Source: Pelagomonas calceolata (lineage: Eukaryota). Taken from it: a stretch of 64,000 nt of DNA. The DNA is taken from positions 6,014,001 through 6,078,000 of the forward strand of contig CAKKNE010000002.1 of NCBI GenBank assembly GCA_918797485.1. The letters are read 5' to 3'. A model generated the notes under the pieces. The model saw nothing but the letters and a program-made list of their open reading frames with translations. It ran no database searches and was not told the origin of the DNA. Both the position numbers and the translations under genes were made by a program. Of the stretch, positions 24,434-56,907 are shown piece by piece (positions within the stretch are counted from its first letter, which is position 1; every line of letters begins with the position of its first letter).

Positions 24434-26686
24434 ATGGTCGCGGACACCGTCCACACCACACCATTAACGATCAAGAGCCAGGCCGCCCGGCGCGGCCCGG
24501 CGCCGCTCGACCTGCTGGTCGCGCCCGGCGCGCCCGAGCACAAGACGCAGAAGATCGAGGTCGCCGCGGCGCTCGCGAATATAAAACTGCGGATCACGGC
24601 CGCCAAGGACGAAGCTGAGTTGACGAAGCTCTGCCCCCACGCCGCGACCGTCGTGCTGATGACGCGCAACGGCCCGGTCACGCGGAGTGACGCCGTCCTG
24701 AAATATGTGTCCGGCCTCAACCCGGCGACGGAGCTCTGCGGCGCGGACGGCTTCGGGCGGGGGCGCGTCGACCAGTGGCTGGAGTTCGGGACCCACGAGT
24801 TGGAAGTCGCCGTGGTCGCCGCGACGACGCACGCGAAGAATAAAGAGGTTGTGAACCGGGCGACGAAGGACGTTCAGCAAGCGTGCCGGACGCTCGACGC
24901 GGCTCTGCAAAAAACGACGTACCTCGCGGGCGACCGCGTGTCGGCGGCAGACTGCGCCGTGGTCTGCGTGCTCCGCGCGGCGCTCAAGAATCAGTTGATT
25001 GCGACGAGCAAACTGGGCCCCTCGTTGCTACGATGGTACCTCACGTGCCTCCACGCGCCGGCCTTTTCCAGTATTTTGGGCGCCGACGCTAAGAATGATG
25101 CGCTCAAGGCGCTGCCCGCCGGCAAGGCGCCCACTTCAAAAAAAACCGCGGCGGCCAAGGCCAAGGCATCACCAACGGCGAAGGCCGTCGCCGACCCGCG
25201 GACGCTCTTCACGCCGACCTTCGCGCGGAGCCGCGAGCGGCTCAAGGAGCTGCTGGGCCGCGGCGCGGCCGCCGTCGGCGCGACGGTCGTCGTCGCCGGC
25301 TGGGTGAGGACGTTACGCGAAGCCATGAAGGGCGCGACGTTATTTGTGGAGCTCAACGACGGGTCGTGCCTCGCCTCGATCCAGGTGGTCTGCGGGAGCG
25401 ACTCGACCGAGGGCTTCGCCGCGGCCAAGGCCTGCGGCGGCGCCGGCGCTTCATTAAGAGTCGAGGGCGCGGTCGTCGAGTCCCCGGGCAAGGGTCAAAC
25501 GATAGAGATCCTGGCCAAGGCCATCACGGTCCTGGGCTGCACGCGCGGCGGCCCGGGCCGGACCGTCGGCGCGCAGACCTACCCGCTCGCGAAGAAGTAC
25601 CACACGCTGGAGCACCTGCGGACGCACGCGCACCTGCGGCCGCGGTCGCGCGTCGGGAGCGCCGTGGTCCGCCTGCGCAACGCGCTCGCGTTCGCGACGC
25701 ACGAGTTTTTTCAACAAAGGGGGTTTTTGTACGTGCACACTCCATTAATAACGGCGGCGGACTGCGAGGGCGCGGGCGAGCAGTTCACGGTGACGACGTT
25801 GCTGCCGCCGGAGCACGACAAGGCGCCGAAATTACCTACCGTCGACGGTCGGGTCGACTACTCGAAGGACTTTTTCGGGCGGCAGGCGTCTCTAACTGTA
25901 TCAGGACAGCTGAATGTGGAGACGCACGCCGTGTCGCTCGCCGACTGCTACACGTTCGGGCCGACGTTCCGGGCCGAGAACTCGAATACCTCGAGGCATC
26001 TGGCGGAGTTCTGGATGATCGAGCCCGAGGTGTCGTTCGCGACGCTAGCGGATGATATCGCCTTGGCGGAGGACTACCTGAAGTACTGCGTCGCGGCGGC
26101 GCTGTGCCGATGTGCCGATGATCTGGAATTTTTCGAAGGAAGTAAAAACGAAGGCCTAAGGGACCGCCTGAAGGCCATCGTCGAGACGCCCTTCAAACGG
26201 TTGGAGTACACGGAGGCCATCTCCGTCTTGCAGAAGGAGATGAAGGCCGGCCGGGCGAAGTTCGAGAACACGGACGTGACGTGGGGTATTGATCTCGACA
26301 GCGAGCACGAGCGGTATTTGACGGAGAAGGTGTACAAGGGCCCGGTGGTCTTGATCAACTACCCGAAGGACATCAAGGCCTTCTACATGAAACTGAATGC
26401 CGACGGCAAAACCGTGGCTGCCATGGACATCCTGGTCCCGCGCATCGGCGAAATTATTGGCGGCTCCCAGCGCGAGGACTCGCTGGAAGTGCTCGAGGAG
26501 CGGGCGAAGTCGGTCGGATTGAACCCCGAGGACATCAAGTGGTACGGCGAGCTGCGGCAGTACGGCTCCGTGCCGCACGCGGGCTTTGGACTGGGCTTCG
26601 AGCGGTTGGTGATGCTCTGCTCGGGCGTCGAGAACATCCGCGACGTGATCCCCTTCCCGAGGACGCCGGGGAACTGTCGCTTTTAA
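24434..26686 (+). CDS. asnS: Asparagine--tRNA ligase with N-terminal GST-like domain
   Basis: GWVRT, ELNDGS, LTVSGQL, YTFGPTFRAENS..RHLAEFWMIEPE, EIIGGSQRE, PHAGFGLGFERL; N-terminal VDQWLEF...TYLAGDRVSAAD. Confidence 0.95.
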   Translation: MVADTVHTTPLTIKSQAARRGPAPLDLLVAPGAPEHKTQKIEVAAALANIKLRITAAKDEAELTKLCPHAATVVLMTRNGPVTRSDAVLKYVSGLNPATELCGADGFGRGRVDQWLEFGTHELEVAVVAATTHAKNKEVVNRATKDVQQACRTLDAALQKTTYLAGDRVSAADCAVVCVLRAALKNQLIATSKLGPSLLRWYLTCLHAPAFSSILGADAKNDALKALPAGKAPTSKKTAAAKAKASPTAKAVADPRTLFTPTFARSRERLKELLGRGAAAVGATVVVAGWVRTLREAMKGATLFVELNDGSCLASIQVVCGSDSTEGFAAAKACGGAGASLRVEGAVVESPGKGQTIEILAKAITVLGCTRGGPGRTVGAQTYPLAKKYHTLEHLRTHAHLRPRSRVGSAVVRLRNALAFATHEFFQQRGFLYVHTPLITAADCEGAGEQFTVTTLLPPEHDKAPKLPTVDGRVDYSKDFFGRQASLTVSGQLNVETHAVSLADCYTFGPTFRAENSNTSRHLAEFWMIEPEVSFATLADDIALAEDYLKYCVAAALCRCADDLEFFEGSKNEGLRDRLKAIVETPFKRLEYTEAISVLQKEMKAGRAKFENTDVTWGIDLDSEHERYLTEKVYKGPVVLINYPKDIKAFYMKLNADGKTVAAMDILVPRIGEIIGGSQREDSLEVLEERAKSVGLNPEDIKWYGELRQYGSVPHAGFGLGFERLVMLCSGVENIRDVIPFPRTPGNCRF

Positions 26687-41550: not shown

Positions 41551-43081
41551 ATGTCGAGCTTCCCGTTCGGCAAAAAGAAAGCTTCTATCAATTGGGCGGA
41601 TGAGGACGACTCCAGCGACGACGAGAAGGGAGACGACTCGACCGGGCCGGACGAGCCCGACGTGCCCAGCTCGGACTCCGAGGACGAGGCCGACGCCGCC
41701 GCCGCCGCCGAGGAGTCGGAGGAGGAGCAGGACGCCTCCGACGACGACGAGGCCGAGAGCTCGGAGGAGGACGAGCCCGCGCCCGCCCCCGAGGTAGCGC
41801 CGACCGAGGAGAAGCCCAAGCCGCCGCCGCCGAAGCAGCTCACGAAGAAGGAGCGCAAGGCCCTCAAGGCGAAGGAGCTCGACGACCTCGACGCGCTGCT
41901 CGCCGCCGAGGGCCTCGCGCCGCAGGAGGCGCCCGCGCCCGCGCCCGCCGCGCCGCCCGCGCCGGCGCCGCCGGCCGCCGACGACGGCGACGCCAAGAAG
42001 AAGAAGAAAAAGAAGGGGCGCCGGCCGTCGGCCAAGGCGGACGAGCCCGCGGCGCCGCCGCCGCCCGCCGCGCCCGCCGCGCCGGCCGACGTCAAGGCGC
42101 TCCTCGCCAAAAAGGCCGCCGCCAGCAAAGGATCGAAGTCCGGTGCGCGCGCGGCGTCCCACGCAATTTCCTCAACTCCGTGGCGCAATGGATAGCGTAT
42201 CAGACTTCGAATCTGGGGGTTGCGGGTTCGAGTCCCGTCGGAGTTGTTGTTCGCTTGATGGACTGGAAATCTGAAGGTTATGAGTTCGAATCTCATATCG
42301 GTTTCACCGCGGTACTTGGACTCTTGCAAGATAGTGTGGCCGAGTGGTTAAGGCGGTAGACTTGAAATCTACTCCCGTAAGGGTCGCAGGATTGATTCTC
42401 ACCAATCAATGCGCTTTCGAACCCTGTCACTATCGCGCACGTTGATGATGTGGCCGAGTGGTCTATTAACCTGAGATGGTTAGACCCTAGGCGCTGGTTT
42501 TAGGCACCAGTCTTCGGGCGTGGGTTCGAACCCCACCATCATCACTTGAGTTCAATTCCGCACATTTGTATCCGTGGCCGAGTTGGTCTAAGGCGTTGGA
42601 TTTAAGCCCCAATCTCTTCGGAGGCGTGGGTTCGAACCCCACCGGATGCAATTTGGACCGATTGGCGCAACGGTAGCGCGTCAGATTCCAGTCCTGAAGG
42701 TTACGTGTTCGAATCACGTATCGGTCACACAAAAGTCGCGGGCGCCGCCGCACGGAGTTTCCCGAAACTCACGCGTCCCCCGAACGCAGGCGGCGGCTCG
42801 GCCATGTCGAAGGAGTCCGTCGCGGAGGCGAAGAAGCGCGCCGACGCGTTAGCCAAGAAGAAGAAGGCCGCTGAGGTACCGCGGCCGCGTCCTTAAATCA
42901 CGGCAAGGGGGTGTAGCTCAGTGGCAGAGCGTCCGCTTTGCATGCGGAAAGCCCAGGGTTCAAACCCCTGCTCCTCCAGCCTTACGTACGCCGTCGGTAC
43001 CGGGTTCCCCGAACTCACGCGTTTCCCCCTTCGCAGAAAAAGAAGAACAAGGCCAAGGGCAAGGGCCCGCAGCAGCGCTGA
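41551..43081 (+). CDS. Acidic/Lys-rich protein of unknown function; tRNA host gene; exons 41551-42142, 42790-42875, 43037-43081
   Basis: Introns GTGCGC..ctcac..CAG (42143-42789, phase 1) and GTACCG..ctcac..CAG (42876-43036, phase 0) give a continuous ...KGSKS-GGGSAMSKESVAEAKKRADALAKKKKAAE-KKKNKAKGKGPQQR*. Confidence 0.8.
42174..42246 (+). tRNA. tRNA-Arg(TCG)
   Basis: AACTCCG/CGGAGTT acceptor stem; TCAGA-CT-TCG-AA-TCTGG; GCGGG-TTCGAGT-CCCGT. Confidence 0.95.
42256..42304 (+). pseudogene. tRNA-Trp-like 3' half with an apparently inverted anticodon loop
   Basis: TCTGA-AGGTT-ATGAG-TTCGAAT-CTCAT-ATCGGTT parallels the 3' half of the tRNA-Trp at 42656; no D arm or 5' acceptor strand. Confidence 0.6.
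42330..42435 (+). tRNA. tRNA-Ser(TGA) with 25-nt non-canonical intron 42391-42415 (position 53/54)
   Basis: GATAGTG/CACTATC acceptor, G73; GTAGA-CT-TGA-AA-TCTAC; long variable arm; T arm GCAGG|insert|TTCGAAC-CCTGT. Confidence 0.9.
42444..42544 (+). tRNA. tRNA-Leu(TAG) with 23-nt non-canonical intron 42466-42488 (D loop, ~21/22)
   Basis: GATGATG/CATCATC acceptor, A73; CTGGT-TT-TAG-GC-ACCAG; removing the insert restores GCCGAGTGGTCTAAGGC. Confidence 0.9.
42568..42650 (+). tRNA. tRNA-Leu(TAA)
   Basis: GTATCCG/CGGATGC; TTGGA-TT-TAA-GC-CCCAA; long variable arm; GTGGG-TTCGAAC-CCCAC. Confidence 0.95.
42656..42727 (+). tRNA. tRNA-Trp(CCA)
   Basis: GACCGAT/ATCGGTC; TCAGA-TT-CCA-GT-CCTGA; ACGTG-TTCGAAT-CACGT. 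Confidence 0.93.
42907..42978 (+). tRNA. tRNA-Ala(TGC)
   Basis: GGGGGTG/CTCCTCC with the G3:U70 alanine identity pair; TCCGC-TT-TGC-AT-GCGGA. Confidence 0.95.
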
Positions 43082-43353
43082 GCCTGCGGAAATGCACGAC
43101 AAGCTACCTACGGGCTTCCACGGTCTCGTTTCGCTGTCGAATATAGGAGAATTAACACAAGCAACATATGAAACAGCGTCTCCTTGTTGTTTCGCTGTCG
43201 TTGTAGAATGCTGACGCGGCGATGGCGTCCTGAAGCGGTACGCGAGTCACTCGCGCCGCGGCGATGGCGTGATGGGCCACGCCGTCGACGCGACTCGTCT
43301 ACGAGAGTCCATAGGCCAACGACGCCCCGTAGAGAGAATTAATACAAGAAACA

Positions 43354-55792: not shown

Positions 55793-56907
55793 ATGTATCG
55801 ACCTTGGCTGGTGCTCGGCGTGGCGGCCGCGCTGCGGCTCCCCGCCGCGCCGTACATAAGTCAGGACTGCAACGCGGGCCGGCGGGCGCCGCGCGCGCCC
55901 GAGCGGCCGCCGCCGAGCCGGCGCGACTGGAACGACTTCATTCGCTTGGTGCAACACGCGCACGGCCAGATCGCCGAGCCGGCGCGGACCGGCGTCCTTC
56001 ATTGCTCTCGTGGCCTAATGGACAAGGCGTCGCCCTCCTAAGGCGAAGATTGCGGGTTCGAGTCCCGTCGTGAGTAGCGTCGACCGGTCCGCGCCCGACG
56101 CAGGTGACGAGTCAGCTGGCCACGGGCGACATCAAGGCGCTCTGCGCGGCGCGCGCGGCCGCGGCGACGGACCAGATCCGGGACGTGGCGGCGACGGGGT
56201 CGCGGCGGTGCCTCGTCGAGCTGGGCGCGCGCGAGGGCCGCGTCGCGACGGTGCTCGCCGACCTGGGCTTCGAGAAGACCTACCTCGTCGACCGCGACCA
56301 CCCGACGTCCGACGAGGCGCGGGCGACGCGGGGCGAGCGCGTCACGGCGGATTTAAGGCACTTTGATGTGGCGGCGCTCACGGACGCGTCCTGCGTCGTC
56401 GCCAAGCACGTGTGCGGCGTCGCGATGGACTACTCCGTGCGCATGGTCGCGCGCGCGCGGCCCGAGGTCTTTGCGTTCGCGCCGTGCTGTTATTTTTCCT
56501 GCGAATACGACGCGTACCCGGGTCGCGAGCTGCTCGCGGAGCTGGGAGTCTGCAGGGACGCGCGCGACTTCGACATGCTCAAGAAGCTCACGCAGTGGGG
56601 GCCGAACCAGTTCTCGCCGTCCACCGAGGCCGCGGGCCGGTGGGCTATGGACTTGATTGATGCGGGGCGCGTCGACTTTCTGCGGCGGAGCGGCCTCGAC
56701 GCGGCGGCGCTGCCCTACGCCGACGCGCGGCTCGCGCTCGACGGGGCGCTCGAGTGCACGCTGCTGGTCGGCTGGCGGCCCCCGGACGCGGACGCGGATG
56801 CGGCGGCGGCGTCGCCCTGGGATACGTACCAAGACGAAAACGGCACGCCGTACTACCACAACCGCGAGACGGGGGAGACGGCGTGGACGCTGCCCGGCGA
56901 GTCCTGA
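55793..56907 (+). CDS. Trm13-like SAM-dependent methyltransferase with C-terminal WW domain; exons 55793-55981 and 56104-56907; tRNA host gene
   Basis: LVELGAREG, LVDR, ADLRHF, AKHVCGVAMD, APCC; WW domain PWDTYQDENGTPYYHNRETGETAWTLP; a GC-AG intron at 55982-56103 joins EP|VTSQL in frame. Confidence 0.7.
56004..56076 (+). tRNA. tRNA-Arg(CCT)
   Basis: GCTCTCG/CGTGAGT; GCCT-AATGGACA-AGGC; TCGCC-CT-CCT-AA-GGCGA; GCGGG-TTCGAGT-CCCGT. Confidence 0.93.

What the first reader, a model, noticed from the sequence alone, without database searches (positions are those of the whole stretch)
42460..42489. Second ectopic BHB intron, in the D loop (~21/22) of tRNA-Leu(TAG)
Seen: helix GGTC(42460-63):GACC(42483-86), bulges TA^T and CT^A, inner stem TAACC:GGTTA. 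Removing 42466-42488 gives GCCGAGTGGTCTAAGGC, nearly the same as the D arm of the neighbouring intron-less Leu(TAA). Two adjacent tRNAs with the same cleavage geometry at different positions make coincidence unlikely. Inference: the lineage has a structure-driven, position-independent tRNA splicing endonuclease, giving introns within tRNAs within an mRNA intron.
Basis: partly seen in the sequence, partly recalled or inferred. Interest (0 to 1): 0.82.

Follow-up and report, generated by a model that had tools for sequence, protein, structure and literature searches.

The report
Archaeal-style tRNA introns in marine algae
A leucine tRNA gene of a small marine alga (a pelagophyte) carries a 23-base insert at an unusual place, and the insert keeps the same cutting-signal shape in 16 sequence variants, so it is very likely an intron removed by an enzyme that reads RNA shape, a trait we found reported only for archaea and red-algal lineages.

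Summary
Confirmed at DNA level. Only removal of 42466-42488 (23 nt) restores a Leu-type D arm, and ARAGORN then calls tRNA-Leu(TAG). The junction is 21/22. The motif is a relaxed BHB (HBh'): there is no exon-side helix. Thirty marine metagenome loci hold the same gene with 16 different inserts of 19-25 nt. All 16 keep the GACC helix partner and the 3-nt bulge, and all four inner-stem pairs show compensatory changes; 1 of 120 control stretches forms such a stem. The same geometry occurs at 53/54 of the neighbouring Ser(TGA) (11 variants) and, in relatives, at 20b/21 of Leu(TAA), where filled and empty copies sit on one contig. The genome is a pelagophyte (stramenopile). The cluster lies in a predicted GT-AG intron of a protein gene. 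Splicing, expression and the endonuclease subunits were not shown. Such introns are known from archaea, red algae and nucleomorphs; nine literature searches found no stramenopile report. Earlier notes of this scan describe similar introns in archaea and giant viruses, none in this lineage. It is a new member of a known kind, in a new eukaryotic supergroup, and offers a test of the proposed shape-reading endonuclease.

The parts
42444..42465 (+). tRNA-Leu(TAG) 5' exon (positions 1-21); includes box A, the 5' strand of central helix H (42460-63) and two bases of the 5' bulge
42466..42488 (+). 23-nt intron at 21/22: third bulge base, h' stem 42467-71 with 42478-82, H partner 42483-86, two bases of the 3' bulge
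42489..42544 (+). tRNA-Leu(TAG) 3' exon (position 22 to the discriminator)
42330..42435 (+). tRNA-Ser(TGA) gene interrupted in the T arm
42391..42415 (+). 25-nt HBh' intron at 53/54 of tRNA-Ser(TGA); H is 42385-88 with 42410-13
42568..42650 (+). intron-less tRNA-Leu(TAA); paralogs in four related loci carry an HBh' intron at 20b/21
42174..42246 (+). tRNA-Arg(TCG), first gene of the cluster
42656..42727 (+). tRNA-Trp(CCA), last gene of the cluster
42269..42303 (+). orphan tRNA 3' half (position 38 onwards, Trp-like), conserved with T-stem covariation; role unexplained
42143..42789 (+). predicted GT-AG spliceosomal intron (647 nt) that holds the whole five-tRNA cluster
42876..43036 (+). predicted second GT-AG intron holding tRNA-Ala(TGC) (42907-42978); absent at this point in locus L021
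41551..43081 (+). predicted host gene (exons 41551-42142, 42790-42875, 43037-43081), 240-aa low-complexity acidic and Lys-rich protein; no Pfam match for exon 1

Best explanation
The 23-base insert sits at position 21/22 of a tRNA-Leu(UAG) gene and is likely a protein-spliced tRNA intron, cut out by a tRNA splicing endonuclease predicted to read the local helix-bulge-helix shape rather than the distance from the tRNA body. Shown by sequence: G18-G19-U20-C20a pair with GACC near the intron end, a 3-nt bulge and an intron stem follow, and cuts after the second base of each 3-nt element give a canonical tRNA. Inferred: in the precursor G18 and G19 are locked in the central helix, so the D-loop/T-loop contacts cannot form and the ruler mechanism of the yeast and human enzyme cannot apply. 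An archaeal-like enzyme, possibly of the two-subunit (alpha-beta)2 type, would cut both sites and a tRNA ligase would join the exons. The same enzyme would handle 53/54 of Ser(UGA) and 20b/21 of Leu(UAA). The intron sequence is free to drift or be exchanged between paralogs so long as the shape is kept.
For: Unique excision gives a canonical tRNA. 16 of 16 distinct inserts from 30 loci end in GACC plus 2 nt, which the search pattern did not demand. First three h' positions: 48 of 48 Watson-Crick pairs with a 3-nt bulge, against 3, 14, 14 and 21 of 48 with bulges of 1, 2, 4 and 5. All 4 h' pairs change on both sides; 18 such cells; 0 of 500 shuffles reach this; RNAalifold gives the same structure unprompted. 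Control: 1 of 120 viral chance matches with the same flanks and GACC has a stem of 3 or more pairs. Exon bases outside the pattern: no mismatch over 31 bases in 27 of 27 full-length copies, and one compensated acceptor-stem pair (22 versus 5 copies). Same geometry at 53/54 of Ser in 20 of 30 loci, 11 variants, and at 20b/21 of Leu(TAA) in 4 loci, 3 of which also hold an empty copy. Precedent: D- and T-loop introns were shown by RT-PCR to be spliced in C. merolae and Chondrus crispus.
Against: No RNA was examined, so splicing is not shown. No endonuclease gene was found or sought in this organism, since no genome is held. The exon-side helix h is missing. The window's variant is the weakest folder of the 16: the strict register is 2.8 kcal/mol above the minimum. 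The four H pairs never vary, so they carry no covariation signal. The pattern fixed 30 exon bases and required a 10-40 nt insert, so the loci are close relatives, not independent, and intron-less paralogs elsewhere in these genomes could not be seen in that scan.
Confidence: 0.88

Rival explanations
1. The insert is a real intron, but a specialised second nuclease or an unconventional route (for example an IRE1-like cut at stem-loops followed by ligation) removes it, not the ordinary tRNA endonuclease.
For: No endonuclease was examined. The exon-side helix is absent at all three positions.
Against: The 4-bp helix with 3-nt elements cut after the second base is the geometry described for archaeal and C. 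merolae tRNA introns, including HBh'. It is kept at three tRNA positions.
Confidence: 0.05
2. The insert is kept in the mature RNA as an enlarged D-loop hairpin, giving an unusual tRNA or a non-translational tRNA-like RNA.
For: A stable hairpin (z = -3.6 for 42453-42495) would also show compensatory changes. No RNA data were examined.
Against: A retained hairpin would not need a bulge of exactly 3 nt (48 of 48) or exactly 2 nt after GACC. It would lock G18 and G19. Filled and empty Leu(TAA) copies differ by exactly the predicted piece.
Confidence: 0.04
3. The gene is a silent pseudogene or an assembly artefact, and an intron-less Leu(UAG) gene elsewhere does the work.
For: A review notes that short D- or T-arm insertions in eukaryotic tRNA genes are usually taken for pseudogenes (PMC4090602). 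The rest of the genome could not be searched.
Against: Exons are unchanged while inserts differ widely. The identical insert occurs in two metagenome contigs, L002 and L025. No intron-less copy in 30 of 30 loci. The intron is kept at the syntenic locus of a relative at 87% identity (L021).
Confidence: 0.03

Closest known systems
Ectopic BHB introns of Cyanidioschyzon merolae nuclear tRNA genes (Soma et al. 2013, PMC3728597; parts 1-2 of 6 read)
   Same: Nuclear tRNA genes; short introns in the D loop and T arm; hBHBh', hBH and HBh' forms; missed by standard finders.
   Different: Red alga against stramenopile. Here the genes lie in same-strand clusters inside predicted mRNA introns, mostly with no downstream T-run, whereas C. 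merolae genes have a TATA-like box and a T-stretch. One intron per gene seen here. Splicing was shown there, not here.
D-loop (20/21) and T-loop (58/59) introns of Chondrus crispus (PlantRNA 2.0, 10.1101/2021.12.21.473619; main text read)
   Same: D-loop and T-region introns in nuclear tRNA genes that tRNAscan-SE called pseudogenes; spliced by RT-PCR.
   Different: Two fixed positions there; three other positions here (20b/21, 21/22, 53/54). That database annotated two heterokonts, and its main text reports no such introns for them.
Non-canonical HBh' introns of crenarchaeal tRNAs, cut by (alpha-beta)2 or epsilon2 endonucleases (passages of PMC4090602, PMC4033280)
   Same: Same motif geometry; positions such as 20/21, 22/23 and 53/54 are listed for archaea; intron gain and movement between tRNA genes.
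   Different: Eukaryotic nucleus; enzyme type unknown. The three pelagophyte intron sets share shape, and no shared sequence was apparent between tRNA species.
Non-canonical tRNA introns of the Guillardia theta nucleomorph (Kawach et al. 2005; seen only through reviews)
   Same: D- and T-arm introns in an alga with a red-derived plastid.
   Different: There they lie in the relict red-algal nucleus and are read as red-algal inheritance; here they lie in the host nucleus of a stramenopile.

Membership tests
Non-canonical BHB-type (HBh') tRNA intron | 4-bp central helix between exon and intron end | tested here: met
   GGTC with GACC in 16 of 16 variants; pairing probability 0.99-1.0
Non-canonical BHB-type (HBh') tRNA intron | 3-nt bulge at the 5' site, cut after its second base, followed by intron helix h' | tested here: met
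   48 of 48 pairs at bulge size 3; compensatory changes at 4 of 4 pairs
Non-canonical BHB-type (HBh') tRNA intron | 3' cut two bases after the central helix, restoring a canonical cloverleaf | tested here: met
   unique excision and ARAGORN call; filled and empty Leu(TAA) paralogs
Non-canonical BHB-type (HBh') tRNA intron | Position other than 37/38 | tested here: met
   between A21 and A22 (numbering is my assignment on the ARAGORN cloverleaf)
Non-canonical BHB-type (HBh') tRNA intron | Removed from the RNA in vivo | not tested
   no reads were laid on the locus; poly(A) libraries seldom hold mature tRNA (own knowledge)
Non-canonical BHB-type (HBh') tRNA intron | Cut by TSEN/EndA | not testable with these tools
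   no genome held; needs biochemistry
Strict hBHBh' motif | Exon-side helix h closing the 3' bulge | tested here: not met
   bases before GGTC do not pair with those after the 3' element beyond a possible U-G; the D stem closes further out
Canonical eukaryotic tRNA intron | Position 37/38 | tested here: not met
   anticodon loop is uninterrupted
Group I, group II or spliceosomal intron (for the 23-nt insert) | Catalytic core, or GT-AG ends and sufficient length | tested here: not met
   19-25 nt with no GT-AG ends; Rfam gives only tRNA here
tRNA cluster inside a spliceosomal intron | GT-AG ends and an open host frame after removal | tested here: met
   240-aa frame in the window; in-frame joins of one recognisable gene in L001 and L004; 2 of 6 joins (L014, L019) look chimeric
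tRNA cluster inside a spliceosomal intron | Spliced host mRNA | tested here: inconclusive
   4 homologous proteins found, none spans the junction

The most novel reading that the evidence does not exclude
Pelagophytes run an archaeal-style tRNA factory inside their mRNA introns. Multi-tRNA clusters are released from host pre-mRNA without their own terminators, a shape-only (alpha-beta)2 endonuclease removes introns at any position, these introns are being gained and swapped between paralogs within a species today, and the conserved orphan Trp-like 3' half is one piece of a split or permuted tRNA. Position-free tRNA splicing would then be a general property of eukaryotes outside Amorphea and not a red-algal relic.
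Probability: 0.25. Interest if true: 0.82.

Novelty: new member of a known kind. Interest (0 to 1): 0.6.

Why it matters
A 2023 review proposes that eukaryotes outside animals, fungi and amoebozoans have a two-subunit endonuclease that may splice non-canonical introns, notes that eukaryotic tRNAscan settings cannot see such introns, and calls this open (PMC10485636 section 6). A 2026 review lists such introns only for red algae and a red-derived nucleomorph, uses them as a sign of red-algal ancestry, and calls their origin unresolved (PMC13578239 passages). A stramenopile host nucleus with three intron positions, many natural variants and filled/empty paralog pairs gives ready substrates for the enzyme test and weakens the red-algal-only view. 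It also means tRNA sets of pelagophyte genomes are probably under-annotated.

Tried and rejected
No whole genome is held and the metagenome records are not searchable by handle, so no genome-wide tRNA or endonuclease survey was possible. No RNA reads were laid, so expression and splicing stay open; 20 of 24 listed runs hold 0.55-0.66 of the region's words, 6 on record as RNA, which I do not count as evidence of splicing. Prokaryote genomes: 1 match, not a tRNA. Homolog search with host exon 1 gave 4 proteins that do not span the junction. Low-threshold ARAGORN gave 180 mostly spurious calls and was discarded. Rfam at E up to 1 found no further disrupted tRNA in the window. Orphan 3' half as a BHB-permuted tRNA-Trp: it co-folds with the Trp 5' half, but the junction has a 1-nt bulge, not a BHB, and leaders differ between loci; not supported. 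A box C/D guide reading was dropped because the register differs between variants (by inspection). The sigma-70 scan is irrelevant to a eukaryote. Pfam on four host exons gave one weak ABC_tran hit below its cut-off.

Full report
Setting. The window is eukaryotic nuclear DNA of about 61-77% GC. Its asparaginyl-tRNA synthetase has Aureococcus anophagefferens (62%), Pelagophyceae sp. CCMP2097 (60%) and Chrysophaeum taylorii (59%) as best named relatives. An identical, unnamed protein is held on a 6.1-Mb contig. The organism is therefore a pelagophyte (stramenopile) other than Aureococcus; that it is Pelagomonas-like is my recall and comes from no call. No genome is held. ARAGORN finds five tRNAs; Rfam finds two more, at 42330-42435 and 42444-42544.

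Observation. Only removal of 42466-42488 gives a Leu-type D arm, and the product is called tRNA-Leu(TAG). The junction lies between A21 and A22 by my numbering. The central helix and inner stem fit the cut sites in 1 of 20,000 shuffles and 17 of 200,000 random window 23-mers. The motif alone occurs 117 times on the + strand, so its register with the tRNA is what counts. The exon-side helix is absent, so this is the relaxed HBh' form. For this variant ViennaRNA prefers a shifted inner register (-18.1 against -15.3 kcal/mol), while the central helix has probability 0.99 or more.

Comparative test. A metagenome scan with the two exon flanks and a free 10-40 nt gap returned 30 loci with 16 distinct inserts of 19-25 nt; two loci carry the window's insert exactly. 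All 16 end in GACC plus two bases, which the pattern did not require. Fifteen have an inner stem of 4 or more pairs and one has 3. With a 3-nt bulge, 48 of 48 first-three pairs are Watson-Crick; bulges of 1, 2, 4 and 5 give 3, 14, 14 and 21. On the alignment, 99.4% of cells pair, all four inner pairs change on both sides, and 0 of 500 shuffles reach the 18 double changes; the seven exon-anchored pairs never vary and say nothing. RNAalifold finds the same structure. Thirteen of 16 variants fold with the 3-nt bulge at minimum energy. In a control set of 120 viral chance matches with the same flanks and GACC, one has a stem of 3 or more pairs. Outside the pattern, 27 full-length copies (4 of 31 truncated and dropped) show no mismatch over 31 exon bases and one compensated acceptor pair. 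Caveats: the loci are related and were selected for exact exons and an insert; no intron-less copy lies in these 30 loci, but the genomes were not searched.

Other positions. Ser(TGA) has a 25-nt HBh' intron at 53/54 (42391-42415). My pattern found it in 20 of 30 loci, with 11 variants; all keep the central helix, 10 have 4 or more Watson-Crick inner pairs, and the eleventh begins with a U-G pair. Leu(TAA), empty in the window, has a 20-25 nt HBh' intron at 20b/21 in L005, L006, L023 and L028, and three of these contigs also hold an empty copy. That pair fixes the boundaries without RNA. L023 is syntenic and 98.6% identical over 878 flanking bases, yet has a different Leu(TAG) intron; L021, at 87% in the upstream gene, has a third. 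Intron sequences thus turn over quickly or are exchanged between paralogous clusters, although chimeric assembly across identical exons cannot be excluded.

Host intron. Joining 41551-42142, 42790-42875 and 43037-43081 at GT-AG ends gives an open 240-aa frame; reading on into the intron stops after a few codons. L021 has the same gene without the second intron at that point. In other loci the cluster interrupts other genes: L001 joins in frame into an ABC-domain sequence, and the L004 join matches a contiguous stretch in L024. Of 6 sequences with both ends found, L014 and L019 appear to join unrelated genes and may be chimeric. No protein spanning the window's junction was found. All clusters with a donor or acceptor found read in the host's sense. 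Only 2 of 21 have a run of four T between Leu(TAG) and the acceptor, which hints at release from a longer transcript. Against this, the Ser intron ends in G in 20 of 20 loci, which restores the box B core; the window has T there. The polymerase is undecided.

Mechanism. Shown: geometry, unique excision, conservation. Inferred: in the precursor G18 and G19 are held in the central helix (for Ser, the T stem is opened), so the L-shape that human TSEN reads (PMC10485636 passages) cannot form. A shape-reading endonuclease must cut after the second base of each 3-nt element, and a ligase must join the exons. CTA makes up 7 of 433 Leu codons in seven window ORFs, so a UAG tRNA is needed, though seldom. 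I put the spliced-intron reading at 0.88. The enzyme type is untested.

Known cases. Ectopic BHB introns are established in C. merolae (PMC3728597, parts 1-2 of 6), Chondrus crispus (PlantRNA 2.0 preprint, main text; supplements not seen), the G. theta nucleomorph and archaea (passages of PMC4090602, PMC4033280 and PMC8450103). The 2026 review names only red algae and that nucleomorph for non-canonical positions (passages). Passage searches of PMC3978253, PMC12168002 and PMC13728533 found no mention of stramenopiles. Nine library searches (listings only unless cited above) showed no report for pelagophytes or stramenopiles. The library lacks most subscription papers; Maruyama 2010, Kawach 2005 and Sugahara 2009 were not read. 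Earlier scan notes concern archaea and giant viruses; none concerns this genome or sequence.

Verdict. A real, conserved HBh' intron at 21/22 of tRNA-Leu(UAG), one of at least three ectopic positions in pelagophytes. The kind is known and the supergroup appears new. RNA and enzyme evidence are lacking. Interest 0.6.

Noticed in passing
window 42269-42303 and 23 of 30 loci: An orphan tRNA 3' half (Trp-like) recurs in 24 copies and 16 variants, always with a paired T stem whose sequence covaries. Its 5' end is complementary to the anticodon arm of the cluster's Trp(CCA). No BHB junction and no separate 5' half was found in the window. It may be part of a split or permuted tRNA, or a processing element.
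   Followed up: partly
window 42656-42727; loci: The Trp(CCA) genes have an A31-C39 mismatch in all 27 copies matched by my pattern; the orphan 3' half has the U39 that would pair.
   Followed up: partly
window about 42304-42322; loci: A conserved spacer motif (CCGCGG, a few bases, GGACT) precedes Ser(TGA) or Leu(TAG) in most clusters; function unknown.
   Followed up: no
L005, L006, L023, L028: Leu(TAA) paralogs with an HBh' intron at 20b/21; three contigs hold filled and empty copies side by side.
   Followed up: yes
window 55950-56103: tRNA-Arg(CCT) (56004-56076) also appears to sit in a GT-AG intron of a protein gene; locus L013 matches the downstream exons of that gene at about 81% next to a full cluster.
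   Followed up: partly
L001, L004, L008, L015, L017, L025, L028: Similar clusters occupy introns of several different host genes (ABC-F/EF-3-like, cyclophilin-like, cold-shock-like; names recalled from the translations), with near-identical donor ends. This suggests the cluster-bearing intron is copied around the genome; chimeric contigs are a caveat.
   Followed up: partly
window 42498-42501: The only run of four T in 42100-43100 lies inside the Leu(TAG) anticodon arm, where a Pol III terminator would be unwelcome.
   Followed up: no
window 24434-26686: The asparaginyl-tRNA synthetase carries an N-terminal GST-C domain, as do many relatives.
   Followed up: no
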